A stretch of 64,000 nt of DNA from IMG/VR virus record IMGVR_UViG_3300033692_000022; one strand, 5' to 3'. Under the pieces are notes generated by a model. It was not told the origin of the DNA. It did no database searches and worked only from the letters and a program-made list of their open reading frames with translations. This document shows, piece after piece, positions 23,384 through 38,385 of the stretch (position 1 is the stretch's first letter; each line of letters begins with the position of its first letter). A program made the translations under genes and the position numbers. Origin of the DNA: a virus (taxonomy: Duplodnaviria; Heunggongvirae; Uroviricota; Caudoviricetes).

Positions 23384-23791
23384 ATGAGTATATTAAATAA
23401 CTTACCCAACTGGAATGCACAGTCAGATAGGGTTGTAGAACCAGATAACGATAAGAAAGCAGCTGGGTGGAGGCTCGGTGAAGAGCCACCTCCTGGTTAC
23501 TTTAACTGGTTCTGGAATCTCGTATCCGATTCATTAAATATTTTAGATACACATAATCACGATGATAGATATTACACCAAAGGTTACTTTGATTCTCACG
23601 ATCATGACAGTTTATATTACAGAAAAGATTACATCGATTCTCACGAGCACGACGACAGATATTACACAAAAAATGATGTTAATAGTATGCTCGGGGCCAC
23701 CTATATTGAAAGCCCAACTGTTGGTAATATATTAGTATCAGACACCGAGCCAACTAATGCAGAAGAAAACGACATATGGATAAAGTTATAA
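23384..23791 (+). CDS. Short tail fiber protein: conserved N-terminal anchor domain plus HxHD-RYY histidine repeats
   Basis: LPNWNAQSDRVVEPDNDKKAAGWRLGEEPPPGYFNWFWNLVSDSLNILDTHNHDDRYYTK is shared with five other fiber genes. It also has repeats SHDHDSLYYRK and SHEHDDRYYTK. Confidence 0.45.
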   Translation: MSILNNLPNWNAQSDRVVEPDNDKKAAGWRLGEEPPPGYFNWFWNLVSDSLNILDTHNHDDRYYTKGYFDSHDHDSLYYRKDYIDSHEHDDRYYTKNDVNSMLGATYIESPTVGNILVSDTEPTNAEENDIWIKL

Positions 23792-23804
23792 AGGAGGCAG
23801 TAAA

Positions 23805-25667
23805 TTGGGATATATAACACCAGATAAATCACCGGGTATATACATGGACCCGATTACTGTCAACTTTAGTGTTGATAGCAGGGTAGTAAATATAGCAGAA
23901 ACTCAGGATGGCAGCAACCCAACAATAGCAAAATATATAGCATATGATAATCTAAACCCACCTAATCCATTCATAGCGACCGTACAGGACGGCAGGGGTA
24001 ATGTTCTGTTCGATGGTGGATTTCCAAAATACTACAATATGAGAGTAAATTCTTCCTGGACTTCATTTTCTCAACTTAATGATACATTTAAGTATTTTCA
24101 TAATGCTTTAGATTGGATAGCAAACGATGATAAGGTATCAGAAGGTAATCGTAAGATGTTATTTCTTGGTGATTCAAACCCTGGAGAATCTTACAACATC
24201 AAACAAACAGGCGGCAGTGATTTTAAAACATCTATAGAAACAATGTGTACTACTGGTAACTGGGACCCTACCTATCTGACAAGAGAAGATTTCAGCGGCG
24301 GCCAAATCGATTTAAGTTATGCTGATTTAGAGCCTTATGTTGGCGTATTCCTGATGTCGAGTAGGCATACATCTAATAGATATATAACTCAATCAACTGT
24401 AGATAATCTATTGGCTTTTAGAGAAGCCGGTAACGGTATGTTTATCATAACAGACCATGGTTCTAGTGCAGACAACGGTTTTTATAGAACTGCTAATTTC
24501 ATAGCTGAAGAACTTGGGGCTCAATTTTTAGGATATTATAATAGATCACCTGTTAATGTTGGTTTCTTAATAGATAACTACGGTAATCATCCTTTATGGT
24601 CTGGTATGGATAGGAGTGGATATGTCCACGCTGGAAGTTCGGAGTCTGAAATAATTGTAGATGAAACACCAACTACTACAACAGCAGACTCTCTTACTGT
24701 AAGTGAACAGGGTTTTAAGACAGCAAGATTCTTAATAGAGCTCGATACAGGAGAAAAGGTATTTGAAACATATTCCTACGGATTGAATGCTGGAGACCCT
24801 ATTACTTTCAATAACGATATTCAAAATGGAGAGCTTAAAATAGGATTCGGCAGAACTATAGATTTAGATTTCGATATAAATTTAGGAATAATGGACAGCG
24901 CTTCAGGGCTAGTAAGAAGGAACAGCGATGTAATAGCTCAGTGGTCAAAAGACAGCGGCGGAATGACAACAGAATGGTTTACCGAAAGTGGTAACAGTAC
25001 CATTAAGGTAGATGATGGGGACTCAATAAAGGTAGCCTTACAGTCTCCAGTCTATTATGCAGAGTCTTTTACTATTAATGCAGCACCTCGAACTTCGACA
25101 GCCATCGACATAAACCTCGAAGATAAGACAAGTAAATACATTTCACTAAGCTGGACCTATGATAGCAGGATAGAACTAGACCATCTCGAGCTTATCTTTT
25201 TAAAAAGCGACGGATCACAGATAGATATAGATGATGACGGTACATTAGAAGATAGGTTAAACCTCAATAAAAGCCTATCATTTAGTGCAAGTAATCTTGA
25301 GCCGGCAACAGAATATAAGTTCAAACTAAGAGTATATGATGTTAACGGCGGCAGTTTAGACAGCAGCTATTATACAGCTAAAACAAACGGAGTACTTAAG
25401 ATACTTGTCGATAATACCTACAAGATACCACGCAACGCTCTAGTAAAAAAAGGAACAGGCTGGTCGAATTTTACAACTCAAATAAAGAATAACGGAGAGT
25501 TTGAGGAAATCGACATAGGGCCTACGATACAAACTTCCATGTTTACTACTGACATGTGGACAGAGTTTTCAAAAGAGGTGCGGGCAATCCACCTGTTAGA
25601 TAATGACTCTGATCTATATGGCAGCAGCCTTGATATTATAGATGTAATAGACTCCTATGGAATATAG
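23805..25667 (+). CDS. Tail protein paralog A, part 1: N-terminal hydrolase-like domain (GDS / TDHG motifs), FN3 module, beta-rich region
   Basis: TTG start after ribosome-binding site AAGGAGGCAG. It is approximately 75% identical over its N-terminal 260 aa to the 27431 ORF. It contains LFLGDSNPGES and FIITDHGSSADNGF. Confidence 0.45.
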   Translation: MGYITPDKSPGIYMDPITVNFSVDSRVVNIAETQDGSNPTIAKYIAYDNLNPPNPFIATVQDGRGNVLFDGGFPKYYNMRVNSSWTSFSQLNDTFKYFHNALDWIANDDKVSEGNRKMLFLGDSNPGESYNIKQTGGSDFKTSIETMCTTGNWDPTYLTREDFSGGQIDLSYADLEPYVGVFLMSSRHTSNRYITQSTVDNLLAFREAGNGMFIITDHGSSADNGFYRTANFIAEELGAQFLGYYNRSPVNVGFLIDNYGNHPLWSGMDRSGYVHAGSSESEIIVDETPTTTTADSLTVSEQGFKTARFLIELDTGEKVFETYSYGLNAGDPITFNNDIQNGELKIGFGRTIDLDFDINLGIMDSASGLVRRNSDVIAQWSKDSGGMTTEWFTESGNSTIKVDDGDSIKVALQSPVYYAESFTINAAPRTSTAIDINLEDKTSKYISLSWTYDSRIELDHLELIFLKSDGSQIDIDDDGTLEDRLNLNKSLSFSASNLEPATEYKFKLRVYDVNGGSLDSSYYTAKTNGVLKILVDNTYKIPRNALVKKGTGWSNFTTQIKNNGEFEEIDIGPTIQTSMFTTDMWTEFSKEVRAIHLLDNDSDLYGSSLDIIDVIDSYGI

Positions 25668-26824
25668 GACACTGCAGACTTAATATAACAGAACCACCAC
25701 CTCTTGTAGCAAACGATGACTCATTTGAGATATACGAGGGTGGATATATAAATATTTATAAATCTCAGATGTTAGACAATGATTACGATGAAAGCGGGAA
25801 CGAACCAATCGAAATCATAGGTTTCTCTGGTGTTACTGGAGGAACACTAACCGAGTACGACAACTACATTAGATTCGATGTAACAAGTCAGGTAGGAGAA
25901 CCTGCAGAGTTTAAATATACAATAACTAACGCAGTAGGCATAGAAACTACAGCCTATGTAAAGTTAATTATTAAAAAGGGACTTATTGCAGGAATAGATA
26001 ATACTGATTCATATAAAGATATCGAAAAGACCATTCCTATTTCAACCCTCGACATAACAGACATTTCAGAAAACCCACCAATTAAGTTAATAGGTGTTAC
26101 AGATCCAAGCGGCGGAACAGTAACCTTTGACGATTATAACATCTATCTTACCTCAACAGCTGCGGCTGGCAGTAATATTTCATTCAATTATACAGTGCGA
26201 AATGATATTAATCTTACAGATACAGGAACTGTTAATGTGAAAGTTATGCCTACTCCTCAGATACAAACAGCTGATGATACATTCGAAGTTACCCAGGGTA
26301 ATCAGATATTGATTTCTAAATCTGGACTCACCAATAATGATACAGATGAAGGAGGATATTACCCACTAACAGTAACCAATGTATACAACGTAACAGGTGG
26401 AACACTTGATGTAAGCGGAGATACTATTACATTTACTTCTACAAGTCTTGCGGGAGAAGCCGCAGGTTTTAAGTATGATGTAGAAAACACTCAGGGCGTA
26501 ACTCAGACAGGAAATGTATATATCACTGTTAATCCACTTCCAGCCGTAGACTCCTTAATTTTTAGCGACGCACAAACAACCCAGGATAAGCTAAACGAAT
26601 ATACTCCTGATAGTATGCAGGACGTATTTACAAGCTGGTATAGATTCTCTCATCAAGGCGGGAATATACAGGTCAACCCTCTTACTATGTATGACGGCAC
26701 TACTCAATACGATTTATATAGCGAAAATATATGGAAGTACCACGCCGATGAAGATAGAATAGCCTGTCAGCAGAATACTCCTCAGCATGTTGGCTTTCTT
26801 CGCCGGGTGGAGATGATGACATGA
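25634..26824 (+). CDS. Tail protein paralog A, part 2, continuing part 1 in the −1 frame. The track ATG is at 25769.
   Basis: The frame is open from 25634 and encodes NIGHCRLNITEPPPLVANDDSFEIYEGG. This aligns to YIGHCEIKTSQTPNLVAMDDSFEVYEGG of the 28206 ORF, with no start codon upstream of 25769. Cadherin-like or Ig-like repeats follow. Confidence 0.45.
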   Translation, partial: YYRCNRLLWNIGHCRLNITEPPPLVANDDSFEIYEGGYINIYKSQMLDNDYDESGNEPIEIIGFSGVTGGTLTEYDNYIRFDVTSQVGEPAEFKYTITNAVGIETTAYVKLIIKKGLIAGIDNTDSYKDIEKTIPISTLDITDISENPPIKLIGVTDPSGGTVTFDDYNIYLTSTAAAGSNISFNYTVRNDINLTDTGTVNVKVMPTPQIQTADDTFEVTQGNQILISKSGLTNNDTDEGGYYPLTVTNVYNVTGGTLDVSGDTITFTSTSLAGEAAGFKYDVENTQGVTQTGNVYITVNPLPAVDSLIFSDAQTTQDKLNEYTPDSMQDVFTSWYRFSHQGGNIQVNPLTMYDGTTQYDLYSENIWKYHADEDRIACQQNTPQHVGFLRRVEMMT

Positions 26825-27411
26825 TCGGTATAGTTTTAGCCTATACTGAAACTTCTAATCCTTATGATGAACATACACTCATAGCTCAAAGAACTCACGG
26901 GGGGATAGGCGGAGGCGAATGGGCTATAATTTATAATAAATCAAAATCTGGGGATAGTGTGATAATAAACGATAGCATATCTGGTGATGATATAAGTGGG
27001 GGTTGGAGTGGAGATCGCACAAGAGTAAGAGCTGAGAGAGAAGGAAATATCATAAAAGTATATGCTTCTCCAATGAATTCAACTACTCTTGATCCAAATT
27101 CAATGTTCGAAATAGATTTAAGCTCAGATAGTAGACTCCACAAATTTATGGACGGAGGATCATACGGGTATTGTTGTTTATCACAGGACAGATCAACATT
27201 TACCGATATACAGTTCGAAGGTGGATTAGACAAATCCATAATCTTAGATATTGAAAATAATATAGTCTGGGAATATAGCTTCGAACAAAGCCAATGGATA
27301 GATACAGGAAGAACTATTCAGGACGAAATAGGATATGTAAGAGAGGTATATAATCCAAACACTGGTGATAGATACCTTGTTAAAGAAAACGAAATAATCA
27401 AAATGACTTAA
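26758..27411 (+). CDS. Tail protein paralog A, part 3, continuing part 2 in the −1 frame. The track ATG is at 26821.
   Basis: Upstream in the same frame, SPGGDDDMIGIVLAYTE aligns with SSNGDNDVIGLVIAFDRD of the 28206 ORF. The C-terminal YVREVYNPNTGDRYLVKENEIIKMT is nearly identical to the paralog B C-terminus. Confidence 0.45.
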   Translation, partial: NSLSAEYSSACWLSSPGGDDDMIGIVLAYTETSNPYDEHTLIAQRTHGGIGGGEWAIIYNKSKSGDSVIINDSISGDDISGGWSGDRTRVRAEREGNIIKVYASPMNSTTLDPNSMFEIDLSSDSRLHKFMDGGSYGYCCLSQDRSTFTDIQFEGGLDKSIILDIENNIVWEYSFEQSQWIDTGRTIQDEIGYVREVYNPNTGDRYLVKENEIIKMT

Positions 27412-27430
27412 GGAAAAGGAGGGGAATTTT

Positions 27431-28228
27431 ATGGGATACGTAATACCAGATAAACAACCTGGAATATATAAAGAACCATTTACTGTAGATTTTAATGTAG
27501 ATAGTAGTGTATCAAATGTAGTAGACACTCAAGATGGAAGCAATCCGACCATAGCAAAGTATATAGCATATGACAATTTAAACCCGCCAAATCCATTTAT
27601 AGCAACAGTTCAAGATGGTAAGGGTAATGTATTATTCGATGGTGGCTTCCCTAAGTACTATAATCACAAATGTGATACATCTTGGAGTTCGTTTTCCGAC
27701 CTTAATAACACCTTTAAGTATTTTTATAATGCTTTGAATTGGATAGCAAATGAAGAAAAAGTAGCTGAAGGGAATCGCAAAATACTTTTTATAGGAGATG
27801 CTATTCCAGGCGAGCCTTACAATATAAAAGAAACTGGCGGTAGTGATTTTAAAACATCAATAGAAACAATATGTAGAGTTGGGAATTGGAACCCTACTTA
27901 TAAGATAAGGACTGATTTTCCTAATAATCAAATAGATTTAAGCTATACAGACTTAGAACCTTATGTAGCGGTATTTCTAATGTCAAGTAGACACACTAGC
28001 ACTAAACATATCACAGATAGTACAGTAAATAACATGCTTGCCTTTAGAGAAGCAGGCAACGGTATATTCATGATTACCGATCATGGATCAAGTGCAGATA
28101 ATGGTTTTTATAAAACTGCTAATTACATTGCAGAAGAACTTGGTGCACACTTCATTGGTGATTATGATAGAACTCCAGTTAACGTAGGCTACCTTATCGA
28201 TAATTATGGCAACCATCCATTGTGGTGA
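27431..28228 (+). CDS. Tail protein paralog B, part 1 (hydrolase-like N-terminal domain)
   Basis: Ribosome-binding site AAGGAGGGGAATTTTATG. It matches paralog A residues 1–265 closely (IAKYIAYDNLNPPNPFIATVQDG identical). It ends at NYGNHPLW*, where paralog A continues. Confidence 0.45.
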   Translation: MGYVIPDKQPGIYKEPFTVDFNVDSSVSNVVDTQDGSNPTIAKYIAYDNLNPPNPFIATVQDGKGNVLFDGGFPKYYNHKCDTSWSSFSDLNNTFKYFYNALNWIANEEKVAEGNRKILFIGDAIPGEPYNIKETGGSDFKTSIETICRVGNWNPTYKIRTDFPNNQIDLSYTDLEPYVAVFLMSSRHTSTKHITDSTVNNMLAFREAGNGIFMITDHGSSADNGFYKTANYIAEELGAHFIGDYDRTPVNVGYLIDNYGNHPLW

Positions 28229-31200
28229 GACTCCTATATCTACCAGCACAGACCCTCTGGTAGTTGATCAGTCAGGCTATAAAACAGCAAGGTTTTTGAT
28301 AGAGCTAGACAATGGAGAAACTAAATTCGAAAGTTATTCTTATGGGTTAAATACTGAAGAGCCGATTGTATTTAATCACAGCCTAATAGATAATAAATTG
28401 GATTTAGGACTTAAGCGAGATTTCAATTTAGATTTCAGTATAGTACTAGGAGTGATGGACAGCGCCAACGGGTTTATTAAAAGAAATAACGAAGTAGTTG
28501 GCCAGTGGTCGAAAGACCAGACTTCTTTTGATAAGACCTGGTTTACCGATAGCGGCACCAACAATATTAAAGTAGAACTAGGAGATTTAATAGAAATAAC
28601 ATTAGAAGATCCTTTGTATTACAGTAAATCAATGACAATAGATGGTAAAGAGCCTATCTTAAATACGTCTCCGCAATCTAGTGGTAACTATGTGGCTCTT
28701 GAATGGGATGTTAGTGATGGCTCACAGGATTTCACATATATGCTTCACAAAAAGAAGTCCTCAGATAGTGTATTCCAAACTATACCAGCTAAAGAAAACC
28801 TTAAGATACTTAATGTATATCCAGAAAATGGGGTAAGTGAAACAATAACCTTCACAAACTGGAAAGGAGAAACTACGACAACCTTAAAATCTGCCTCCCT
28901 AAAGAAATGGATGGAAGAACCAAATAACACACATTCAAAAGGATGGGGTAAAGGCCTTATAGATGTCGATATAGTTTCATTACTGGACTTTAATAATTCA
29001 CCAGACAGTTATCTTAAGACTAATGGCAGTTATGACTATGATGTTGTAGTATTTGGAACCTGGGATTGTAATGGAGATTGCTCAAGCGGTGGAGATACTA
29101 GCGCAGCTGCGGCAGCAAGCATAGAAACTTTCATCAAGACGGGCAGGGGTGTTCTACTCGGTCATGATACATTACACAAAAACCATCCTAATTTCAATAG
29201 TCTTGTTAGTTATTTTAATGTTACTTTAGATACAACGGGTATAGGATATACAGAACTTGAAATAACTAAAAAAGGATTACTCACCAACTATCCCTGGTAT
29301 ATAGGAGATATCGGAGATAAACTATCTATTCCCATGGCACATGTAACCAATCAGATGGCGCATGGAGATGTATGGTTTAAATTTACCGATGACACCTGGG
29401 GTGGTTATGACTATGTTGCTAATGACCTAACAAGAAATTTTTATCTTACTACATGGAATAATACTGCCTTAATTCAGACCGGTCACAGTGATGCTCAGGC
29501 GACTTCTGATGAACAGAAACTACTTGCTAACACACTATTTTATCTAGGTCAGGTTACAACCGCAACTAGCTGGAATGATATGTCCGGGCAGGATCTCGCC
29601 GGGCCAGAAAAACCAGTCATAAATAACGTAAAAATAAACCAAGACACTAAGAAAATAGAAATAGATTACAGTTCTCCAAATGATAATGGAACCACATATG
29701 ACTACTACGTTACTGCAAAAGGTAGTGAAGGATTAACAACCCAAACCAACACTTCTACTTGTACTATAAAAACAAATATTGCCGGTTATTCAATATTGGT
29801 AGATGACAGTCCAAGTAGTGTGCCCAATAACGATATAAACACTACAGAAACTTCATATGATTTGGAACATGAAAAATATGATAATTTCTATGTCCATATT
29901 GCAGCAGTAGATAATGCAGGAAACATATCAAAAACCTCACACTATCATTATACAGACAATACCGCTCCTGATTTAGATTTAACACAAAAAATATCAGAGT
30001 GGACACCTACAGAAGAAACTATAGTTGCTGAAGCTACTGATATAGGGTCTGGGGTTAGCAGAATACAACTCCCTAACGGTGAGTGGGTTAATCAATCAAA
30101 AGTAGAATTTAAAGCCACATCAAATGGTGATTATACTTTCACTGCAGAAGATTATACCGGCAACAGAACAACAAAGACTATTACCGTATACGGAGTTGGA
30201 CCAGAAAGTAATCCATTAATAAATTTAAAAATAACAGAAGTTACAAGTAGTACCATAGACCTTAGATGGGAAATATCAGAAACCATAGATGTAGACTATA
30301 TAAATTTAATGTTCCTCAAAAAAGACGGAGAAGAGTTTAAAAATATAGATATTAATGGTGACGGCTCTATAGATGATTATCTAAATATAAACGATGCAAC
30401 TTCATACAGTGTTAATAAACTCGAGCCCAGAACAGAATATTACTTTAAAATAATAGTCTATGACAATGACCAAACTCAGATGAGCAGTGCTTTATTGTCG
30501 GCAAAAACAAAAGGGCTAATAAAGGTAAATAAGAATGGCAGTTTCAAAATAGCAAAAGATGTACTCGTTAAAAAGAATAATGACTGGGAGTCCTTTAGCG
30601 GTAAAATAAAGAAGGACGGTAAACAGGTTAAGGTAGATATAGGTACTACAATTAAAACAAATCTATACGAAGAAGATGTCTGGCCGGGCTTCGAAAAAGA
30701 AATAAGGGCCATTCACTTATTAGAAGATGATAGTGATATATATGGAGATACTGATCTTAATATTGTCGATATCAAAAACGTATACGGAGGGGATGCCGAA
30801 TTCGTAGGAAGCGATTCTCTGGTAGAAACATCAGTAAACTTTAGAAATAATGCTGAGATAGGAGAAACTGCTGGTTTTACTTATGTAGTAGAAAACTCCA
30901 GAGGTAGAAGATATATCGGGCATTGTGAAATAAAGACATCTCAAACTCCAAACTTAGTAGCAATGGATGACTCGTTTGAAGTTTATGAAGGCGGATTTGT
31001 TGATATATATAAGTCGCAAATACTAGCCAATGATTATGATACAGAAAATAATACTCCAATAGAAATAGTAGATGTATTCGATGCAAAAGGTGGGACTCCT
31101 ACTGTATATGATAATTATATTAGATTCCAGGTGAATGATGAAATTGGAGATCCTGCTCAATTTAGATATACAATCAGAAACTCAATAGGTCAAGAAACAA

Positions 31201-32696
31201 CTGCATACGTAAAATTACTAATCAAAAGAGGATTAAAAGCTGAAGATCAAACTCTAACTGGTTATAAAGGAAAGGAAAAATTAATTCCTCTATCGCAGTT
31301 AAATATTACAGACCTATCAGAGTCGCCTCCATTCGAAATCACAGAGATTAAAGATACAGCAAATGGCAGCTTGATAAGTTATAACAAAGATGAAATAAGA
31401 TTTGTACCAACTGGAGAGATCGGCGAGGAAGCTAGTTTCGTATATCAAGTCAAAAATCAAACAGAATTAATTGATGAAGCCAAAATTACTCTAACCATAG
31501 AAGAGCCACCACAGATAACCTGTAATGACGATTTATTTGAAGTCACTCAAGGAAAAGAACTTATAATATCAAAATCAAATTTAAGCGATAATGATACAGA
31601 CTCGAAGGGGTTATACCCTTTAAGTGTAACTTCAGTTAAAGAACCTATTGGATGTAGTTTGAGCACTGATGGAGATACCATAATAGTAACACCAATAGTA
31701 AATGCAATGGAAGAATGTGGGTTCAAATATGAAGTAGAAAATACCGAAGGGATAAAAGGTAGTGGTAATGTGTTTATTAATGTTAAGCCATTACCAGAAA
31801 TAGAAGCTCTAATTTACGAGAATCAAAACGAAATAGATAATGAAATCGAGAATATCGTACCTCCTACAATGAAAAATATATTTAATCAGTGGGATAGATT
31901 CGATGGGGATAATTTATACACAGCAGGCTCTAGTTATGATGGCAACGCCTCATCCTGGCAATTTAGTGAAAACCCGGACAGAGTGATACAACCCGTAAAT
32001 GTGGCGCCCTATAATGGGTTTTTAAGCAACAAAGAAGTAGACTTTTATAGTCACGAAGCAACGCTAACTTCTAGCAATGGGGATAATGATGTTATTGGTC
32101 TTGTTATAGCTTTTGATAGAGATAACAATAAAAATCATACGTTAAGTGTAATAATATCAAAAGGTGATCCTATACCTAAAAGCGGTTACGGTATTGTATA
32201 TGACTATGATTATACTCATGGTGGAAGAATTCATGATAGAGATTGGATTGTTGAAGAAAAAAATGTTATATCTACCGCTGCTGGGTGGAGTGGTAACAAA
32301 ATCAGAGTAAGAGTAGATAGAGATAAAGATATAATAAAGGTATATTGCTCTGGTTGGAATAATTTGTCAAGCTATAAGATAGAGTCAGAGATAGTTATAG
32401 ATTTAAATAGTGATCCAAGACTAGAACGGTTTAAAGGAAAAAAGAAATATGGCTACGGGAACTACTCTCAAGCCAATACCACATATTTAGATATAGATTT
32501 CAAAGGTGGTATTAACTACACTAAGATGTATAACTTCGAAACAGAAACTGTATATAAATATAATATAGATAGCAATTCTTGGGAGGCGACGAATACTACT
32601 ATCCAGGATGAATTAGGGTATGTAAGAGAAGTGGTTAACCCGAAAACAGGAGAAAGATATCTTATCAAAGAAAACGAAATAATTAAAATGACATAG
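28206..32696 (+). CDS. Tail protein paralog B, part 2 (1496 aa): beta-rich region, a ThuA/GATase1-like domain, Ig-like and FN3 modules, cadherin-like repeats and a C-terminal lectin-like domain
   Basis: Contains YDVVVFGTWDC...GRGVLLGHDTLH (GATase1/ThuA-like), EATDIGSGVSRIQLPNGEWV...AEDYTGNRTTKTITV (Ig-like module) and an FN3 module with DINGDGSIDD. The C-terminus matches the 26821 ORF. Confidence 0.5.
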   Translation: MATIHCGETPISTSTDPLVVDQSGYKTARFLIELDNGETKFESYSYGLNTEEPIVFNHSLIDNKLDLGLKRDFNLDFSIVLGVMDSANGFIKRNNEVVGQWSKDQTSFDKTWFTDSGTNNIKVELGDLIEITLEDPLYYSKSMTIDGKEPILNTSPQSSGNYVALEWDVSDGSQDFTYMLHKKKSSDSVFQTIPAKENLKILNVYPENGVSETITFTNWKGETTTTLKSASLKKWMEEPNNTHSKGWGKGLIDVDIVSLLDFNNSPDSYLKTNGSYDYDVVVFGTWDCNGDCSSGGDTSAAAAASIETFIKTGRGVLLGHDTLHKNHPNFNSLVSYFNVTLDTTGIGYTELEITKKGLLTNYPWYIGDIGDKLSIPMAHVTNQMAHGDVWFKFTDDTWGGYDYVANDLTRNFYLTTWNNTALIQTGHSDAQATSDEQKLLANTLFYLGQVTTATSWNDMSGQDLAGPEKPVINNVKINQDTKKIEIDYSSPNDNGTTYDYYVTAKGSEGLTTQTNTSTCTIKTNIAGYSILVDDSPSSVPNNDINTTETSYDLEHEKYDNFYVHIAAVDNAGNISKTSHYHYTDNTAPDLDLTQKISEWTPTEETIVAEATDIGSGVSRIQLPNGEWVNQSKVEFKATSNGDYTFTAEDYTGNRTTKTITVYGVGPESNPLINLKITEVTSSTIDLRWEISETIDVDYINLMFLKKDGEEFKNIDINGDGSIDDYLNINDATSYSVNKLEPRTEYYFKIIVYDNDQTQMSSALLSAKTKGLIKVNKNGSFKIAKDVLVKKNNDWESFSGKIKKDGKQVKVDIGTTIKTNLYEEDVWPGFEKEIRAIHLLEDDSDIYGDTDLNIVDIKNVYGGDAEFVGSDSLVETSVNFRNNAEIGETAGFTYVVENSRGRRYIGHCEIKTSQTPNLVAMDDSFEVYEGGFVDIYKSQILANDYDTENNTPIEIVDVFDAKGGTPTVYDNYIRFQVNDEIGDPAQFRYTIRNSIGQETTAYVKLLIKRGLKAEDQTLTGYKGKEKLIPLSQLNITDLSESPPFEITEIKDTANGSLISYNKDEIRFVPTGEIGEEASFVYQVKNQTELIDEAKITLTIEEPPQITCNDDLFEVTQGKELIISKSNLSDNDTDSKGLYPLSVTSVKEPIGCSLSTDGDTIIVTPIVNAMEECGFKYEVENTEGIKGSGNVFINVKPLPEIEALIYENQNEIDNEIENIVPPTMKNIFNQWDRFDGDNLYTAGSSYDGNASSWQFSENPDRVIQPVNVAPYNGFLSNKEVDFYSHEATLTSSNGDNDVIGLVIAFDRDNNKNHTLSVIISKGDPIPKSGYGIVYDYDYTHGGRIHDRDWIVEEKNVISTAAGWSGNKIRVRVDRDKDIIKVYCSGWNNLSSYKIESEIVIDLNSDPRLERFKGKKKYGYGNYSQANTTYLDIDFKGGINYTKMYNFETETVYKYNIDSNSWEATNTTIQDELGYVREVVNPKTGERYLIKENEIIKMT

Positions 32697-32707
32697 GAGG
32701 TTATTAA

Positions 32708-33325
32708 ATGTCGATACTAGGAGAATTACCAGATTGGGATGCGCCGTCTAATAAAATAATAGAACCAGATATAACTAAAAAAACTAGTGGCTGGAATCCA
32801 GGGGAAAGGCCTCCAGCCTACTATTTTAATTGGTTCTGGACGAGAGTATCAAACGCTCTAAAAATTTTAGACGCACACAATCACGATAGTTTGTATTATA
32901 AAAAATCCGAGATAGACAGCAAAATACAGCAATCAGTAGCAAGCAATGAAGACTTGGTAGAATCAATGTACCCAATAGGATCAATTTATATTAATGCAAC
33001 AAACAATACCAATCCTGGCACTTTATTAGGCTTTGGAACTTGGGAAAGATTTGGTGAAGGTAGAGTATTAGTCAGCCAAGATAGCACAGATGCGGATTTT
33101 GATGCAATTGGCGAAACAGGCGGAGAAAAAACACATCAATTAACTGAATCAGAAATGCCATCGCATAATCACAATTATACCAGAGTATCGGGAGGTTATG
33201 GAGGTGGTGGTCTTAATGTAGATGGCAGCACAAGTACAGTACCTACTAGTCTAGCTGGCGGCGATTCTCCCCATAACAACCTTCAACCATACATCACAGT
33301 TTATATGTGGGTAAGAATATCATAA
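32708..33325 (+). CDS. Tail fiber with conserved N-terminal anchor and a C-terminal phage tail-collar-like domain
   Basis: N-terminal LPDWDAPSNKIIEPD...GWNPGERPPAYYFNWFWTRVSNALKILDAHNHDSLYY. The C-terminal PIGSIYINATNNTNPGTLLGFGTWERFGEGRVLV...GGEKTHQLTESEMPSHNHNY...PHNNLQPYITVYMWVRI fits the Collar (PF07484-like) pattern. Confidence 0.55.
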   Translation: MSILGELPDWDAPSNKIIEPDITKKTSGWNPGERPPAYYFNWFWTRVSNALKILDAHNHDSLYYKKSEIDSKIQQSVASNEDLVESMYPIGSIYINATNNTNPGTLLGFGTWERFGEGRVLVSQDSTDADFDAIGETGGEKTHQLTESEMPSHNHNYTRVSGGYGGGGLNVDGSTSTVPTSLAGGDSPHNNLQPYITVYMWVRIS

Positions 33326-33355
33326 AAACTAAATTAAGAAAGAGGAAGTGATAAA

Positions 33356-34129
33356 ATGGATAGCTTTTATCTTCCAGAATGGACCCCACCAGCCAATATG
33401 CTGGTGGAACCAGAGATTGAAAGAAGAAACCTAGGATGGGGCGCTGGAGAATCACCACCTGCAGGTGTGTTTAACTGGTTTTGGAATAAGACATATAATG
33501 CTTTAAAAGTAATAAGAGACCACGATCATGATGCAAGATATTATACTAGAATGGAAATGGGAAATATTATTTCCAATATGGCCCCAAAGGAACATGAACA
33601 CGAAGGTTCAGATATTATATCTAAAGTATCAGAGGCAGCAAATGCAGACGAGGCAACAAACTCACAAACACTTCAGGGCAGACCACCAGAACAGTTTGCC
33701 GACAATGTACACTACCACGATGATAGATACTACACAGAAGACGAGATCGATCAAAAGCTAGGCTTCAAATCCAACACTGGCCACACTCACAACTACGCGC
33801 CAGCAGAACACATCCATGATGATATATATAAAACTGAATCAGAGATAATTAATCTTGCCAAAGCAGTTAGCGTAGAAGATATATCAATAATCCAGGGGAC
33901 AATAGAAGACGGAGAGAAACTACCATTACCAAACGGCTACACTGAAAGTCAATGCAGTTGGGTAGTATCACCAAGACAGGTGGCCACAACCGGTAGAACT
34001 GACGGATATGACGATGGTAAGGGAATAAGATTCTATGCAGATAATGATCGTAACGTTATTGCTAGATTCGATGGGCTTGGTGAAGTTTCTGGTACTGCTA
34101 ACTTTATAGTTATAGGAGTTAAAAAATAA
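33356..34129 (+). CDS. Tail fiber with conserved N-terminal anchor and His-rich HxHD-RYY repeats
   Basis: N-terminal LPEWTPPANMLVEPE...GWGAGESPPAGVFNWFWNKTYNALKVIRDHDHDARYYTR. Further repeats KEHEHEGSD, VHYHDDRYYTEDEIDQKL, GHTHNYAPAEHIHDDIYKTESEI. Confidence 0.5.
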   Translation: MDSFYLPEWTPPANMLVEPEIERRNLGWGAGESPPAGVFNWFWNKTYNALKVIRDHDHDARYYTRMEMGNIISNMAPKEHEHEGSDIISKVSEAANADEATNSQTLQGRPPEQFADNVHYHDDRYYTEDEIDQKLGFKSNTGHTHNYAPAEHIHDDIYKTESEIINLAKAVSVEDISIIQGTIEDGEKLPLPNGYTESQCSWVVSPRQVATTGRTDGYDDGKGIRFYADNDRNVIARFDGLGEVSGTANFIVIGVKK

Positions 34130-34144
34130 ATAGGGGGAATTAGA

Positions 34145-34582
34145 ATGTATGTACTAATTAATTTAGATAAAAAATCTATATATGGCTTTTCTTCTAGTAA
34201 GCCAAACATAAAAGATCTTATTTCAATCAATAGAACAGCCGTAGAATATACTGGAGAACTCAGTTATGACTCGCTAAGGCCAGTTATTGATAATGGTGAC
34301 GTAATATCGGTAAAAGAAAAGACTAAATATCAGTTAAGTGCGTCTACAACTCAAATAAATGCTGGCGGCGAAGATAGAACATTTGTAAACATCAAAGTAG
34401 ATGATGGAGACGAAGATCAGGTAATGTTTAAAGTAAATGATGAAAAAGTAGGTACTGTATATACTGAGGGAGGCACAACCGAACTCGAATTTACAGCTGA
34501 TAGTCCCGGTATCTACACAATAACAGCAGAAAGTATTAATAAAAGGTATATCAGTAACTCAATAGACATAGAGGTGATATAA
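34145..34582 (+). CDS. Small Ig-like (Big_2-type) domain protein
   Basis: TFVNIKVDDGDEDQVMFKVNDEKVGTVYTEGGTTELEFTADSPGIYTITAES is a Big_2-like beta-sandwich pattern. Confidence 0.35.
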   Translation: MYVLINLDKKSIYGFSSSKPNIKDLISINRTAVEYTGELSYDSLRPVIDNGDVISVKEKTKYQLSASTTQINAGGEDRTFVNIKVDDGDEDQVMFKVNDEKVGTVYTEGGTTELEFTADSPGIYTITAESINKRYISNSIDIEVI

Positions 34583-34704
34583 TGAGCGGCCTTAAATTTA
34601 ATGGCAAGAATCCTAAAGAAAAGACCGACAAAGAAAGAATAACTGAACTCGAAGAAAAGATAGCAAAATTGGAAAAAATCATAGAAGAAAATACAACTAA
34701 TTAG
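34582..34704 (+). CDS. Small coiled-coil protein (40 aa), absent from the ORF track
   Basis: The ATG overlaps the upstream stop (TAATG) and is preceded by GAGGTGA. The product is MSGLKFNGKNPKEKTDKERITELEEKIAKLEKIIEENTTN. Confidence 0.25.
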   Translation: MSGLKFNGKNPKEKTDKERITELEEKIAKLEKIIEENTTN

Positions 34705-34715
34705 GAGGTTTTTAG

Positions 34716-35543
34716 ATGTCTTTTTTAGACCAACTACCAGAATGGAATGCACCAACAATGAAAATTCACACCCCAACTCCCAAGAAACAGGAAGAGGGTT
34801 GGAATATAGATGAAAGACCTCCTGCCGGTTATTTTAACTGGTTTTGGACAACTGTGTCTGACGCATTAAGAATCTTAGATACTCACAATCATGACTACAA
34901 GTATGTAATTAGAGGGGAAGACAATGTAATATCTTCTGAGATGATACAAAAAAACATCATCAATGAAGAACATTTTAGAGAAAATATAGACTTTAAACAG
35001 TTTATACCAGAAATAGACAGCCACCAGCATGATAACTATTTACAAAAAGACGGAGACACCATGAGTGGCCCTCTAAGACTTGGCGATAATTCAACACTAG
35101 TTAAAGAAACACCAAATGGAGATCACATTATAATAGATGAAAACGGTAGAGTATGGAACTCTGTTTACAATGATATCGCAGAACTTTATGAAGCTGACCC
35201 AAAAGTCAAAGAAGGCCAGGTACTAATCTGGGACGGAGAAAAAGTAAGAACAACATTTAAAGCAGAAGACGAGAGAGTTATAGGAGTATATTCAAATACA
35301 TTTGGATACTGTCTTGGAGGACAGCCAACTACTATTAATAAAGTTCCTATAGGTATTAGCGGTAAAGTCAAGACAAAGGTTAAAGGCCCAGTTAGACCAG
35401 GAGACCTCCTGACTACTTCAGAAATACCCGGGGTTGCTAAAAAGTCCGAGAATAAAAAACTTGGAACAATATTTGGTAAAGCCATGGAAGACATAGAAAA
35501 AGATAAGATTAAGACAATCTGGGTATTCATTGCGGTGATATAA
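34716..35543 (+). CDS. Tail fiber with conserved N-terminal anchor and a DGDTMSGPL fiber motif
   Basis: N-terminal LPEWNAPTMKIHTP...GWNIDERPPAGYFNWFWTTVSDALRILDTHNHDYKY. SHQHDNYLQKDGDTMSGPLRLGD is a recurrent phage fiber motif. Confidence 0.5.
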   Translation: MSFLDQLPEWNAPTMKIHTPTPKKQEEGWNIDERPPAGYFNWFWTTVSDALRILDTHNHDYKYVIRGEDNVISSEMIQKNIINEEHFRENIDFKQFIPEIDSHQHDNYLQKDGDTMSGPLRLGDNSTLVKETPNGDHIIIDENGRVWNSVYNDIAELYEADPKVKEGQVLIWDGEKVRTTFKAEDERVIGVYSNTFGYCLGGQPTTINKVPIGISGKVKTKVKGPVRPGDLLTTSEIPGVAKKSENKKLGTIFGKAMEDIEKDKIKTIWVFIAVI

Positions 35544-36374
35544 ATGGGATTATTAAATAATATACCGGGCTGGAATGCCCCAGAAGAAAAAGTAGTAGAG
35601 CCAAAACAGGTAAAAAAAGATAGCGGCTGGAATCCAGGAGAAAGACCACCCGCATATGTATTTAACTGGATGTGGAACATGGTATCAAATGCCCTAGAAA
35701 CACTGAGCAATCACTTACATGATGATAGGTACTCAAAGAAAGACCACACTCACAGCGTGACTGAAGTATCTGGTAAGATAGATAATGCAGCTTATGCTGA
35801 TAACGCAGACAAGTTAGATGGTAGAGACGCCTCGGATTTTGCCTCAAGTTCACACTCCCACCCCTACTCTCCAGAAAACCACACCCATGATGGAAGATAC
35901 TATAAAGAATCTGAAGTCAACAACCTTATAAATAACCTACAAAATGAAGTAAACAATCTTAAAAACCAATCTATGGATCTTGAAAATGTTTATCCAGTAG
36001 GATCGCTATATTTTAATGCAGTCAGCGGTCAAAACCCTGAAACTCTTTTAGGTTTTGGTAAGTGGCAGCGCTTTTCTAAAGGTAGAGTATTAGTAGGATT
36101 AGATGAAAGTGATGGTAATTTTAACGGGTTACAGGAAAGAGGAGGAGCAAAAACACACAGACTTACCGATGCAGAAATGCCAAAACACAAACATATCTCG
36201 CCTTATGGTGATACTTGGAACACTCCATGGGGGACATATGGTAACTGGAAAACAGGTTCTGGGGATTCAGATAGTGACAACCACTACCACTGGACAAGTC
36301 CAGCAGGAGGAGATAAGCCACACAACAACCTGCAGCCTTATATCACGGTCTATATTTGGCGCAGAACACAGTAA
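35544..36374 (+). CDS. Tail fiber with conserved N-terminal anchor, HxH repeats and a tail-collar-like C-terminal domain
   Basis: N-terminal IPGWNAPEEKVVEPK...GWNPGERPPAYVFNWMWNMVSNALETLSNHLHDDRYSKKDHTH. The C-terminal PVGSLYFNAVSGQNPETLLGFGKWQRFSKGRVLV...GGAKTHRLTDAEMPKHKHI...PHNNLQPYITVYIWRRT is paralogous to the 32708 C-terminus. Confidence 0.55.
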   Translation: MGLLNNIPGWNAPEEKVVEPKQVKKDSGWNPGERPPAYVFNWMWNMVSNALETLSNHLHDDRYSKKDHTHSVTEVSGKIDNAAYADNADKLDGRDASDFASSSHSHPYSPENHTHDGRYYKESEVNNLINNLQNEVNNLKNQSMDLENVYPVGSLYFNAVSGQNPETLLGFGKWQRFSKGRVLVGLDESDGNFNGLQERGGAKTHRLTDAEMPKHKHISPYGDTWNTPWGTYGNWKTGSGDSDSDNHYHWTSPAGGDKPHNNLQPYITVYIWRRTQ

Positions 36375-36387
36375 AGGAGGTGCTTAG

Positions 36388-38367
36388 ATGCCACTAACAG
36401 AAACAGAAGTAGAAAATAGGATTATAGAGTTAGAGTCGGCTCTCGACTTACACAATCATATAACATCGTTTAGTGATGGTAGTGGTGGCAATCCGATACA
36501 AAGTAACGCATTAGATTCTGAGCTTAAAACAGAGATAGAAACTAATATCTCTCACAGAGATGTAGTCGACGCAAATCCACATCAAACAAAAGCCCACCAG
36601 ATACAGATAACAGCAGGAGATTATGCTTCACATAATATCCAACAGGCACTAGATATAATAAAGTCTAAAAGCAAAAATGACTATAGCGAGTTAGAAGAGT
36701 TAAGCAATGCCCTTGCTAATACGATTAAGACTGGCGATGCAGTAACTGATTGGACAATAGAAGAGTCATCTATTAAAAACAACAGAGCTTTATTTAATAA
36801 GATAGAATCTCATAATCATGATTCAAGATATACGAAACCATTTGAGCTAGAAAATGAGATTAACAGTCACTCTGAAAGCAACGCTCATGATGAAAGATAT
36901 TACACTAAAAACTATTTAGACAGTGAATTTGGAACAAAATCTGATAAGACACATCTTCATGATGCAATCTATCTTAGAAGACCAGAACTTGATGACTTAT
37001 ATTTTAATGTAGCCGATGACGAATTAAATATCGACCTAGAAATCAATAAGACATCTCCTAAGCTGACATTAAATGATGAATCAACCAATGGTAAGCTGGT
37101 AGAGATAACCTCCACAGATGAAAGATTCCTGCTTAAGATGAACGGCAATAATAAGCTGGACCTTCAAAATGATTTAGTAGTGGATATACCTGGTAATATA
37201 ATTCTTAGAGACACTCCAGTATCACTCGAAGGACACGTGCATGATAATAGATATTATCAAAAATATCAGGTAGAAGACTTACTATCAACTAAATCGGAAC
37301 AAGGCCATATTCATGATCATATATATTACAGACAGTCAAAGGTTCATAGCCTATTGGATGAGAAGACAGATTTAGATCATAAACACGAAGATATTTATTA
37401 CAATAAAACAGCAGCAGATAATAGGTTTGTTAATAATACCGTAGACACAATAGATGAATTAACAGTAAATGACAAACTGAACCTTAACGACAGGGCATAT
37501 TTTGATGAAAGTGGTTTGATTTTTAAAAGCTACAATTCAACAATAAGTATCGATAATGATAGTGATAATAATTTAGGTCTCAATATTAGGTCTGGAAACT
37601 TAGATCAAATATATCTCAATACGGATAAAGTAAAAGTAAGAAGTAATCTTGAAGTTGTAGGAGATATTCATCTAGGCCATAAAATAAATGGAGTCAAAAT
37701 AGAAGATTTTAAAGCAGAATATGATTTCCACGCATCAAAAGATGATGCTCACCATGAAAAATATACTGACCGAGAAGCAAGGGTCGCAATATATAATGAT
37801 GGCAACCATTATGAAATGGCAGACCATGTGCATAATCACAACACCCTTTATTATAAAAAAGAGTATATAAATTCAGCTCTATCCCAGAAGGCCGATAAAG
37901 ATCATGACCATGATTCAATGTATATGAGAATAGAAGAGGTAATAGAAAGACTAGATAATAAATCAGACAAGGGTCATCTCCACGATACAAGATACTATAC
38001 TAAAGATGAGATGAATCAACAGATAACCCTAATCGGAGATGAACTCCAGCTTAAGTCTGATAAGGGTCATGATCATAATGAAACATATTATACTCAGGCT
38101 GAAGTGGACCAGGAGATAAAAGATAAGACAGGTAATAGTGCCTATGTTGTAAGTGGTGAAATAATAACAGACATCAATGGTAGAGCAAAATTACCAATAC
38201 CATCCGGCTTTGATAGGCACGAGTGCCATTATATGGCCTCTGCTGGCCAGAATACTTTAGTTCCTTATTCCAGCTCTGGCGTGGAGATAAACAGAAATAC
38301 TGGAGATATACAAGTAAGTCCAAGTAGTGTAGATGCAGTAAACTATATGGTAATTGGAATCAGGTAG
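36388..38367 (+). CDS. Long fiber protein (659 aa) built from approximately 12 HxHD-x-RYY-TK histidine repeats
   Basis: Repeats include SHNHDSRYTK, AHDERYYTKNY, THLHDAIYLRR, GHVHDNRYYQKY, GHIHDHIYYRQS, DHKHEDIYYNK, HVHNHNTLYYKKEY, DHDHDSMYMRIEE, GHLHDTRYYTKDE, GHDHNETYYTQAE. Confidence 0.5.
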   Translation: MPLTETEVENRIIELESALDLHNHITSFSDGSGGNPIQSNALDSELKTEIETNISHRDVVDANPHQTKAHQIQITAGDYASHNIQQALDIIKSKSKNDYSELEELSNALANTIKTGDAVTDWTIEESSIKNNRALFNKIESHNHDSRYTKPFELENEINSHSESNAHDERYYTKNYLDSEFGTKSDKTHLHDAIYLRRPELDDLYFNVADDELNIDLEINKTSPKLTLNDESTNGKLVEITSTDERFLLKMNGNNKLDLQNDLVVDIPGNIILRDTPVSLEGHVHDNRYYQKYQVEDLLSTKSEQGHIHDHIYYRQSKVHSLLDEKTDLDHKHEDIYYNKTAADNRFVNNTVDTIDELTVNDKLNLNDRAYFDESGLIFKSYNSTISIDNDSDNNLGLNIRSGNLDQIYLNTDKVKVRSNLEVVGDIHLGHKINGVKIEDFKAEYDFHASKDDAHHEKYTDREARVAIYNDGNHYEMADHVHNHNTLYYKKEYINSALSQKADKDHDHDSMYMRIEEVIERLDNKSDKGHLHDTRYYTKDEMNQQITLIGDELQLKSDKGHDHNETYYTQAEVDQEIKDKTGNSAYVVSGEIITDINGRAKLPIPSGFDRHECHYMASAGQNTLVPYSSSGVEINRNTGDIQVSPSSVDAVNYMVIGIR

Positions 38368-38385
38368 GAGGAAAGGAGGATTAAT

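What the first reader, a model, noticed from the sequence alone, without database searches (positions are those of the whole stretch)
23384..38367. Recurrent H-x-H-D-x-R-Y-Y-T-K histidine repeat in seven fiber genes
**What the sequence shows**
- The motif (GHLHDTRYYTKDE, HNHDDRYYTKG, VHYHDDRYYTEDE, NHLHDDRYSKKDHTH, about 12 copies in the 36388 gene) recurs with roughly 12–25-aa spacing.
- It is always HxH followed by an aromatic pair.

**Interpretation**
- HxH repeats in trimeric fibers coordinate Fe or Zn ions along the three-fold axis, as in T4 gp37 and gp12.
- This motif resembles a distinct, highly regular variant and may define a metal-stapled beta-helical fiber shaft family.
Basis: partly seen in the sequence, partly recalled or inferred. 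Interest (0 to 1): 0.55.

Follow-up and report, generated by a model that had tools for sequence, protein, structure and literature searches.

The report
Histidine-pair repeat in phage tail fibers
Several tail-fiber genes of this large uncultured phage carry a real, highly non-random H-x-H-D-x-R-Y-Y repeat, but it is a local example of a very widespread, already catalogued phage fiber repeat (Pfam "PTR") whose probable metal-binding role has never been shown.

Summary
The motif is real. H.H[DNE]..Y occurs 20 times in the + strand ORFs, against 0.1 expected. It lies in six genes inside the range (23384, 32708, 33356, 34716, 35544, 36388) and one outside it (17544). A repeat profile is significant in only five of these. 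Gene 36388 has 10 copies, not about 12. The Tyr at +6 is invariant, but the second aromatic residue is present in only about two-thirds of copies.

It is not a new family. Homologues score above threshold on Pfam PF12789 (PTR, "Phage tail repeat like") on exactly this sequence. A 35-column profile finds 8,727 protein clusters in 1.84 billion representatives, and the exact codon pattern occurs in genomes of many bacterial phyla and Methanobrevibacter. The family unit is 24 residues: GKSDTG-HTHDDRYYTETEVDTLLA.

Indirect support is good:
- The proteins are trimeric-type fibers, with a conserved N-terminal domain shared with annotated tail fiber proteins and T4 gp10-like heads.
- The two His are kept or lost together: 958 HxH, 107 GxL and only 4 single-His among 1,076 cores.

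"Beta-helical" is not supported. A low-confidence model gives a short helix per unit.

Verdict: new member of a known kind, moderate-low interest.

The parts
23384..23791 (+). Short fiber gene (135 aa). It has a ~55-aa N-terminal tail-fiber domain, then three repeat cores 15 aa apart (nt 23552-23587, 23597-23632, 23642-23677: HNHDDRYYTKGY, HDHDSLYYRKDY, HEHDDRYYTKND). The short C-terminus ends in ...NAEENDIWIKL.
   Evidence: N-terminus matches phrog_7389/2126 tail fiber. The repeat profile gives E 2.4e-13 with 3 domains.
32708..33325 (+). Short fiber gene (205 aa). It has the same N-terminal domain, one repeat core (nt 32876-32911, HNHDSLYYKKSE) and a T4 gp10-like C-terminal head domain. The head has its own collar-type HxH (EMPSHNHN, nt 33164-33172).
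   Evidence: Gp10_C PF21939, E 1.6e-33. Repeat profile E 5.9e-8.
33356..34129 (+). Fiber gene (257 aa). It has the N-terminal domain and three repeat cores (nt 33521-33556, 33710-33745, 33809-33844). It also has HEHE (33593-33601) and an HTHNYAPAE spacer unit (33782-33790). The C-terminal ~85-aa domain is shared with 36388 and with Aeromonas phage tail fibers.
   Evidence: (E 1e-35, 3 domains). Its homologues carry PF12789.
34716..35543 (+). Fiber gene (275 aa). It has the same N-terminal domain but only degenerate nuclei of the motif (HNHDYKYV at nt 34884-34919; HQHDNY at 35022-35030). The C-terminal part gives a weak hit to the Peptidase_G2/IMC autoproteolytic domain.
   Evidence: (22.2 bits, below the cut-off of 25). 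The repeat profile is not significant (E 3).
35544..36374 (+). Fiber gene (276 aa). It has the N-terminal domain and repeat cores at nt 35712-35747 (HLHDDRYSKKDH) and 35880-35915 (HTHDGRYYKESE). It also has short HxH units (HTHSV at 35745-35753, HSHPY at 35853-35861) and a T4 gp10-like head with collar-type EMPKHKHI (36186-36194).
   Evidence: Gp10_C E 1.8e-31. T4 gp10 structures 2fkk/2fl8/5hx2 match at E 1e-12 to 2e-10. Repeat profile E 1.8e-8.
36388..38367 (+). Long fiber gene (659 aa), without the shared N-terminal domain. It has ten repeat cores in three blocks: aa 142-200 (nt 36811-36987), aa 283-342 (nt 37234-37413) and aa 482-572 (nt 37831-38103). HxH-to-HxH spacing is 24, 24, 24, 24 and 31. 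The blocks are separated by non-repeat domains. The C-terminal domain is related to that of 33356.
   Evidence: (E 3e-61, 9 scoring domains). There is a weak PTR hit at aa 501-564 (17.5 bits). The ortholog P0002 (61% identity) keeps every HxH.
17544..19064 (+). Coiled-coil-rich fiber-like gene outside the stated range (506 aa). It has a single degenerate nucleus, HHHDSQYV (nt 18591-18626). This is probably the 'seventh' gene.
   Evidence: The repeat profile is not significant. phrog_19567 tail fiber, E 2.5e-9.
34145..34582 (+). Small Ig-like ORF directly downstream of fiber 33356. It is a paralog of 38386-38844 and a candidate fiber accessory protein. It does not carry the motif.
   Evidence: Weak Big_7/Invasin_D3 hits. 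25% identity to 38386, E 1e-4.
38386..38844 (+). Small ORF directly downstream of fiber 36388. It is a paralog of 34145-34582 and a candidate fiber accessory protein. It does not carry the motif.

Best explanation
The window is part of the tail module of a roughly 200-kb uncultured phage that encodes a battery of fibers.

**Architecture (shown)**
- Five short paralogous fibers share a ~55-aa N-terminal domain that also heads annotated tail fiber proteins in cultured phages. I infer that it attaches the fiber to the baseplate. Each carries a different C-terminal head.
- One long fiber (36388) lacks that domain.
- Their shafts are built from a phage fiber repeat already catalogued as Pfam PTR (PF12789).
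- The unit is typically 24 residues: ...K-S-D-x-G-H-x-H-D-x-R-Y-Y-T-(E/K)-x-E-(V/I)-D-x-x-L-x-x... A 15-residue short form occurs in 23384.

**Mechanism (inferred)**
- In the trimer, the extended H-x-H segment of each chain points both imidazoles at the three-fold axis.
- Three chains together would form an octahedral His6 site for a divalent metal (Fe2+ or Zn2+; the identity is unknown).
- The following Asp, Arg and Tyr-Tyr would brace and cap the site.
- The T-E-x-E-V-D-x-L-L segment would form a 2-3 turn helix that packs as a short three-helix layer.

The shaft would then be a stack of short coiled-coil layers stapled by metal ions: about 9-10 per 36388 trimer and 3 per 23384 trimer. The metal staples would give rigidity and register to a thin fiber and help trimerisation.

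**Status of each step**
- Shown: motif, periodicity, family breadth, fiber context, coupled conservation of the two His.
- Inferred: trimer-axis geometry, metal binding, helical layers.
For: **The motif is real.** There are 20 motif hits against 0.1 expected. In 36388, four 24-residue spacings occur against 0.0035 expected.

**Family membership**
- Homologues of 33356 carry PF12789 above threshold, on 'KLSTKADSGHDHDGRYFTKEQVNSAIAGKADTGHTHD'.
- Profile A3 finds 8,727 clusters at E<=1e-3 and 454 at E<=1e-30, with up to 37 copies per protein.
- The consensus from 623 units has H0 and H2 fixed by the way units were selected. The other conserved positions are D3 86%, Y6 98%, Y7 85%, T8 90%, E11 89%, L16 95% and K19 91%. 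The dominant period is 24.

**Fiber and trimer context**
- The N-terminal domain matches phrog_7389/2126 tail fiber families and the N-termini of the Bacillus phage Sam112 gp24 'gpH-like tail fiber receptor binding protein', Aeribacillus AP45 and D6E tail fibers.
- Gp10_C heads match solved T4 gp10 structures.

**Joint role of the two His**
- Of 1,076 D-x-R-Y-Y-T-E cores, 958 have H-x-H, 107 have G-x-L and only 4 have a single His.
- G-x-L units occur in 20 of 144 proteins.
- A hydrophobic Leu replacing the second His argues that this position faces the core.

**Precedent**
- HxH/His6 metal sites on trimer axes occur in the T4 gp37 needle (PMC12609058, PMC11705849) and the P2 gpV apex (PMC11448403).
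- An Fe held by six His sits inside the helical stem of the 80alpha RBP (PMC7048315).

**Secondary structure.** The AF2 fragment model gives one helix per unit, starting just after YY. The one 31-residue unit (24+7) simply has a longer helix. It is conserved in ortholog P0002, which has the same 31-residue spacing.
Against: - There is no structural or chemical evidence for metal binding. Both AF2 models are of low confidence (mean pLDDT 32.7 and 55.6), are monomeric, and say nothing about the axis.
- The Foldseek search with the second model returned only noise.
- No PDB chain contains the repeat. The two weak partial hits (80alpha FibU, DT57C LtfA) lie in unmodelled regions.
- The window's own proteins score below the Pfam PTR gathering threshold (17.5 against 27 bits).
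- The His statistics come from proteins retrieved with a profile that contains HxH, so the high share of HxH units is partly built in. The near-absence of single-His units is less affected.
- Spacing increments in the family do not form a clean heptad series, so the coiled-coil part is weak.
Confidence: 0.6

Rival explanations
1. The repeat is a purely structural fiber unit, and the His pairs do not bind metal. They would form an inter-chain hydrogen-bond or stacking ladder with the adjacent Asp and Tyr, or act as a pH-sensitive switch. They are conserved for packing reasons only.
For: - No metal evidence exists.
- The invariant neighbours D3, R5 and Y6 could make a self-sufficient polar network.
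- Units with G-x-L in place of H-x-H exist in the same proteins, so the fold does not need the His.
Against: - The strictly pairwise presence or absence of the two His (958 against 4 single-His) is what a shared ligand set predicts. A hydrogen-bond ladder would tolerate single substitutions (Asn, Gln) more often.
- i/i+2 His pairs on trimer axes bind Fe or Zn in the solved phage fibers and spikes described in the papers read here (PMC12609058, PMC11448403, PMC7048315).
Confidence: 0.25
2. The repeat is a divergent member of the T4 gp37/gp12-type beta-structured shaft, a beta-helix or six-stranded needle with HxH iron sites.
For: - It shares the HxH signature and the fiber context.
- Short 9-11-residue HxH units (HTHNYAxxSHTHD) between the long units look more like an extended beta array.
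Against: - Full proteins and repeat profiles find no gp37, gp12, pyocin-fiber shaft or any other PDB chain.
- The only T4 similarity is the separate gp10-like head domain.
- AF2 predicts a helix in every unit and no strands (low confidence).
- The T-E-x-E ... L-x-G-K pattern looks like a helix N-cap and C-cap (inference).
Confidence: 0.1
3. The motif is a compositional or low-complexity artefact of His/Tyr/Asp-rich sequence and has no specific meaning.
For: The proteins are His-rich, at 4-5.6%.
Against: - Residue shuffles that keep composition give 0.1 hits against 20 observed. For 36388 they give 2.0 HxH against 12.
- The same 24-residue unit is conserved in thousands of unrelated contigs.
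Confidence: 0.01

Closest known systems
Pfam PF12789, PTR ('Phage tail repeat like')
   Same: It is the same repeat. Homologues of 33356 score 28-38 bits (cut-off 27) on ...K-A-D-x-x-H-x-H-D-x-R-Y-(F/Y)-T-K-x-x-V-N-x-x-L-x-G-K-A-D-x-x-H-x-H.... The window's 36388 and its ortholog hit the same model at 17.5 and 24.4 bits.
   Different: - The window copies are divergent: K instead of E at +9, and variable second Tyr. They fall below the curated threshold.
- I found no functional or structural description of the family: 'PF12789' occurs in only 2 papers of the library and the family's full name in none.
- Gene 23384 uses a 15-residue short form.
T4 gp37 long-tail-fiber needle domain (HxH iron sites); similar tips in Bas63 and Sf14 fibers
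   Same: It is a trimeric fiber with repeated i/i+2 His pairs, proposed here to form His6 sites strung along the axis (PMC12609058; PMC11705849).
   Different: - There is no sequence similarity.
- The gp37 needle is a six-stranded beta barrel made by the chain doubling back at the tip. Here the units are tandem, 24 residues long, and predicted to contain a helix.
- The D-x-R-Y-Y-T-E signature was not recovered in any PDB chain, gp37 included.
T4 gp10 / gp12 head (collar) domain
   Same: The C-termini of 32708 and 35544 are Gp10_C domains (E about 1e-33 and 1e-31) that match solved gp10 structures. They contain their own 'MPxHxH'. In gp12 a comparable His pair binds Zn (my own knowledge).
   Different: This is a separate globular domain, not the shaft repeat. 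It accounts for only 2 of the roughly 35 HxH in these genes.
Staphylococcus phage 80alpha / phi11 RBP stem and 80alpha FibU (gp68)
   Same: - The RBP stem is a helical trimer with an Fe held by six His (PMC7048315). This is the closest architectural analogue of the model proposed here.
- FibU carries a partial copy of the motif (PKNHNHDERYV, aa 329-339).
   Different: - The RBP has a single site and no repeat.
- The FibU hit is weak (E 0.14) and lies in the unmodelled part beyond residue 123.
Tail fiber proteins of Bacillus phage Sam112 (gp24, annotated 'gpH-like'), Aeribacillus phage AP45 and Geobacillus phage D6E
   Same: They share the N-terminal ~50-aa domain (LPxW...GWxxGExPPxxxFNWF) at 40-54% identity. 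Sam112 gp24 lies directly after the baseplate J-like and I-like genes, which suggests this domain attaches the fiber to the baseplate.
   Different: The Sam112 fiber has no HxH repeat after that domain. The repeat is therefore a separable module.

Membership tests
Pfam PF12789 PTR (Phage tail repeat like) | Score at or above the curated gathering threshold (27 bits) on the Pfam HMM | tested here: inconclusive
   Gene 36388 scores 17.5 bits and its ortholog P0002 24.4 bits, both below the cut-off. More than 100 homologues found with 33356 carry PF12789; six were re-scanned and score 28.5-37.7 bits on the aligned repeat.
Pfam PF12789 PTR (Phage tail repeat like) | Tandem units with HxH, then D-x-R-Y-(Y/F)-T, then a K-(S/A)-D loop, with the next HxH about 24 residues on | tested here: met
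   Window units align without gaps to units of PF12789-bearing proteins. Profile A3 retrieves P0074, which also carries PF12789. 24-residue spacing occurs in 33356 and 36388.
T4 gp37-type HxH iron-binding needle | Detectable sequence or profile similarity to the gp37 tip or related solved fibers | tested here: not met
   There is no PDB hit for 36388, 33356, P0004 or P0120, or for profiles A1 and A3.
T4 gp37-type HxH iron-binding needle | His pairs of three chains coordinate metal ions on the three-fold axis | not testable with these tools
Indirect support comes from the all-or-none His pairs.
T4 gp37-type HxH iron-binding needle | Beta-structured shaft (six-stranded needle or beta-helix) | tested here: inconclusive
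   The AF2 fragment model shows helices and no strands, but mean pLDDT is only 55.6. The full-length model is unusable.
T4 gp10-like C-terminal head domain (PF21939) | Pfam score above threshold and a match to solved gp10 | tested here: met
   Gene 32708 scores 117 bits and 35544 scores 110 bits, against a cut-off of 27. 2fkk matches at E 1.3e-12. This applies to these two genes only.
Tail fiber N-terminal domain (phrog_7389 / phrog_2126; annotated 'gpH-like' in Bacillus phage Sam112) | Conserved ~55-aa N-terminus shared with annotated tail fibers that sit next to baseplate J/I genes | tested here: met
   PHROG hits range from E 1e-6 to 8e-11 in all five short genes. There are 16 invariant columns among the five. 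tblastn matches Sam112, AP45 and D6E fibers, and the Sam112 gene context fits.

The most novel reading that the evidence does not exclude
PTR repeats would be a structurally uncharacterised, metal-stapled fiber-shaft fold, distinct from the T4 gp37 needle. It would consist of short three-helix layers alternating with His6 metal sites every 24 (or 15) residues. It is used by thousands of phage and prophage fibers across bacterial phyla and archaeal viruses. A single 36388 trimer would hold about 10 metal ions, and the fibers of this phage together dozens. That would greatly widen the set of phages that sequester Fe or Zn in their tails. The natural GxL units would be the metal-free version of the same fold.
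Probability: 0.45. Interest if true: 0.55.

Novelty: new member of a known kind. Interest (0 to 1): 0.32.

Why it matters
For this window it mostly matters as annotation.
- It marks six or seven genes as fibers and shows their modular build: a shared N-terminal domain, a repeat shaft and swappable heads.

More generally:
- The repeat is one of the commonest fiber motifs in sequence space (8,727 clusters), yet no solved structure contains it and I found no description of its function.
- If the His pairs do bind metal, the repeat would be a simple sequence marker for metal-loaded fibers in metagenomes. It would also be a designable staple for engineered fibers.
- The paired HxH/GxL alternation offers a ready-made natural control.

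Tried and rejected
1. **DNA and protein searches of the cultured-phage collection**
- Queries 32000-39000, 36388 and the repeat-rich P0144 found nothing. BLAST's low-complexity filter probably hides the repeat.
- A 61-aa two-unit query found only three records, all Methanobrevibacter viruses.
2. **PDB sequence searches.** Two window proteins, two family members and two repeat profiles gave no usable hit.
3. **NCBIfam.** No hit.
4. **AF2 of full-length 36388 with a 2-sequence alignment.** Mean pLDDT 32.7, so the model was discarded.
6. **AF2 of a four-unit fragment with 44 in-register family segments.** Mean pLDDT 55.6, used only as a secondary-structure hint. Foldseek against the PDB with it gave noise, best E 4.9.
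7. **The search for related loci with the repeat alignment.** I replaced it with a degenerate DNA pattern scan.
8. **Heptad increments in unit length, as a coiled-coil test.** The distribution (24, 25, 15, 35, 31, 37, 28, 21...) is not clean enough.
9. **Literature searches** for the motif strings and for the Pfam family name found nothing relevant.
10. **Chance or low complexity** was rejected by shuffling.

Full report
**Setting**

The window is a one-strand structural (tail and baseplate) module. The exact protein of 36388 lies on an ENA metagenome contig of 202,621 bp and on several other metagenome contigs. Nothing similar at the DNA level exists among 50,697 deposited phage genomes. This is therefore an uncultured large phage.

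Yes.
- A six-frame scan finds H.HD..Y 17 times, all in + strand coding frames. Sixteen are inside 23384-38367 and one is at 18591.
- With the slightly looser H.H[DNE]..Y there are 20 hits in the + strand ORFs. Residue shuffles give a mean of 0.105 and a maximum of 2 in 1000.
- In 36388, which is His-rich (5.6%), shuffling predicts 2.0 HxH and 0.0035 pairs of HxH 24 residues apart. The gene has 12 and 4.
- Gene 23384 has three copies exactly 15 residues apart.

Several details of the finding need correcting.
- Six genes in the range carry the motif: 23384, 32708, 33356, 34716, 35544 and 36388. The seventh, 17544-19064, is outside it.
- I built a profile of the full unit from HxH-to-HxH segments (alignment A3). 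It is significant in only five genes. Genes 34716 and 17544 retain only an HxHD nucleus.
- Gene 36388 has ten copies, one of them single-His (NAHDERYY).
- Tyr at +6 is invariant, but the second aromatic residue is present in only about two-thirds of copies.
- The 8.9 kb between 23805 and 32696 encodes fn3/Big_9/cadherin-like proteins without the motif.

**What are the genes?**

- Five of them (23384, 32708, 33356, 34716, 35544) share a ~55-residue N-terminus with 16 invariant columns. The first HxH always sits at residue 56-57.
- That N-terminus matches PHROG tail-fiber families. It also matches the N-termini of the tail fibers of Bacillus phages Sam112 and Sam46, Aeribacillus phage AP45 and phage D6E.
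- In Sam112 the fiber lies directly after the baseplate J-like and I-like genes and is annotated as gpH-like. This suggests the domain attaches the fiber to the baseplate.
- The C-termini differ:
  - T4 gp10-like head domains in 32708 and 35544 (Pfam Gp10_C, E about 1e-33 and 1e-31; solved T4 gp10 matches at E 1e-12).
  - A weak intramolecular-chaperone-type hit in 34716.
  - A domain shared by 33356, 36388 and Aeromonas phage fibers.
- The region therefore encodes a battery of modular fibers with a common attachment end, a repeat shaft and exchangeable heads.

**What is the repeat?**

It is not peculiar to this phage.
- Gene 36388 has few full-length relatives. Two more distant hits, P0003 and P0004, are packed with the same motif.
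- A search with 33356 returned 115 proteins. Nearly all carry Pfam PF12789, 'PTR, Phage tail repeat like'.
- Re-scanning shows the PTR model lies exactly on '...KLSTKADSGHDHDGRYFTKEQVNSAIAGKADTGHTHD'.
- The window's own copies hit PTR only weakly: 17.5 bits for 36388 and 24.4 for its ortholog, against a threshold of 27.
- Profile A3, searched against 1.84 billion representative proteins, finds 8,727 clusters at E<=1e-3, 2,767 at E<=1e-10 and 454 at E<=1e-30. Some proteins have up to 37 copies.
- From 623 units in the top 147 proteins the consensus is G-K-S-D-T-G-H-T-H-D-D-R-Y-Y-T-E-T-E-V-D-T-L-L-A.
- The dominant HxH-to-HxH spacing is 24, in 616 of 2,220 gaps. Secondary classes at 9-11 residues are short HTHNYAxSS units. 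Between successive cores there are minor spacing classes at 15, 21, 25, 28, 31, 35 and 37.
These come from Firmicutes, Actinobacteria, Bacteroidetes, Proteobacteria, Chloroflexi, Saccharibacteria and Methanobrevibacter. Methanobrevibacter viruses are also hit.
- In Sporomusa acidovorans the motif-bearing ORF lies in a prophage tail module beside baseplate J-like and lysis genes.

**Is its structure known?**

Apparently not.
- Neither the window proteins, nor two repeat-rich family members, nor two repeat profiles match any of 177,635 distinct PDB sequences convincingly.
- The only weak hits are 80alpha FibU (PKNHNHDERYV, E 0.14) and DT57C LtfA (YTKTEVDSALADKAD, E 0.01). In both structures that part of the protein was not modelled.
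- Literature searches for the Pfam name and for the motif strings found no description.

**How does it most likely work?**

Direct testing was not possible.
- The full-length 36388 model is useless, with mean pLDDT 32.7.
- A four-unit fragment with 44 in-register family segments reached only pLDDT 55.6. I use it only as a hint.
- In that model each unit has a non-helical HxHDxRYY stretch followed by an 8-10-residue helix. The one 31-residue unit (24+7) simply has a longer helix. The 31-residue spacing is conserved in the ortholog.
- No strands are predicted, so 'beta-helical' is unsupported. Foldseek with this model gave noise.

The most informative evidence is comparative.
- Among 1,076 D-x-R-Y-Y-T-E cores in the family, the two positions are H/H in 958, G/L in 107 and single-His in only 4.
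- G-x-L units occur in 20 of 144 proteins, side by side with HxH units.
- Two residues that are kept or lost together, with the second replaced by Leu, are what one expects of a joint, core-facing ligand pair.

Three points together make an axial His6 metal site the best explanation, at a confidence of about 0.6:
- the trimeric fiber context;
- the precedents of HxH/His6 sites in T4 gp37, P2 gpV and the helical stem of the 80alpha RBP (PMC12609058, PMC11705849, PMC11448403, PMC7048315);
- the i/i+2 geometry.

The metal-free structural ladder is the main rival, at about 0.25.

**Verdict**

- The idea of metal binding is reasonable and gains indirect support.
- The claim of a new family is wrong, because this is the Pfam PTR repeat, present in thousands of phage and prophage fibers.
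- The beta-helix claim has no support.
- For the window this is a new member of a known kind. The open question, which is real but not specific to this locus, is the structure and metal content of PTR shafts.

Noticed in passing
window 23805-27411 and 27431-32696: These are two paralogous copies of one very large fn3/Big_9/cadherin-like tail protein, each broken differently. The first is split into three ORFs (23805, 25769, 26821). The second is split into two ORFs (27431, 28206) that overlap by 23 nt in different frames. This could be a frameshift, a genuine split or an assembly error.
   Followed up: partly
window 34145-34582 and 38386-38844: These are weakly paralogous small ORFs (25% identity), and 34145 gives weak Ig-like hits. 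Each sits directly downstream of one of the two fibers (33356, 36388) that share a C-terminal domain. They are candidate fiber accessory, chaperone or distal adhesin proteins.
   Followed up: partly
window 23384-23791 (C-terminus), 38844-39452 (C-terminus), 17544-19064 (C-terminus): The three proteins share a C-terminal tail: ...EPTNAEENDIWIKL, ...EEPVDAEENDLWVIA and, more weakly, ...DPANAEVGRIWLRTD. This may be a common docking or assembly tag on otherwise different fiber-like proteins.
   Followed up: no
window 39470-39835: A staphylococcal-nuclease-fold gene (Pfam SNase, E 6e-10) is embedded in the tail-fiber module.
   Followed up: no
window 33164-33172 and 36186-36194: A second, unrelated class of HxH ('EMPSHNHN', 'EMPKHKHI') lies inside the T4 gp10-like head domains of 32708 and 35544. 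It resembles the collar-domain His pair that binds Zn in T4 gp12 (from memory, not tested).
   Followed up: partly
family proteins P0120, P0122, P0124, P0132, P0135, P0242 and others: A His-free version of the repeat (G-x-L-D-x-R-Y-Y-T-E, often with a 15-residue period) alternates with HxH units in the same proteins. Single-His units are almost absent (4 of 1,076).
   Followed up: yes
loci L006-L085 (genome scan); H24-H26 (Methanobrevibacter viruses): The exact HxHDDRYYTE motif occurs in genomes of many bacterial phyla, including Saccharibacteria, and in Methanobrevibacter and its viruses. The repeat therefore crosses the bacterial-archaeal virus divide. In L080 four matches lie exactly 72 nt (24 aa) apart.
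   Followed up: partly
window 19081-22830: A 1,249-aa protein with DUF6273, DUF7743, fn3 and Big_13 domains lies just upstream of the fiber cluster. It is another large adhesin-like tail component.
   Followed up: no
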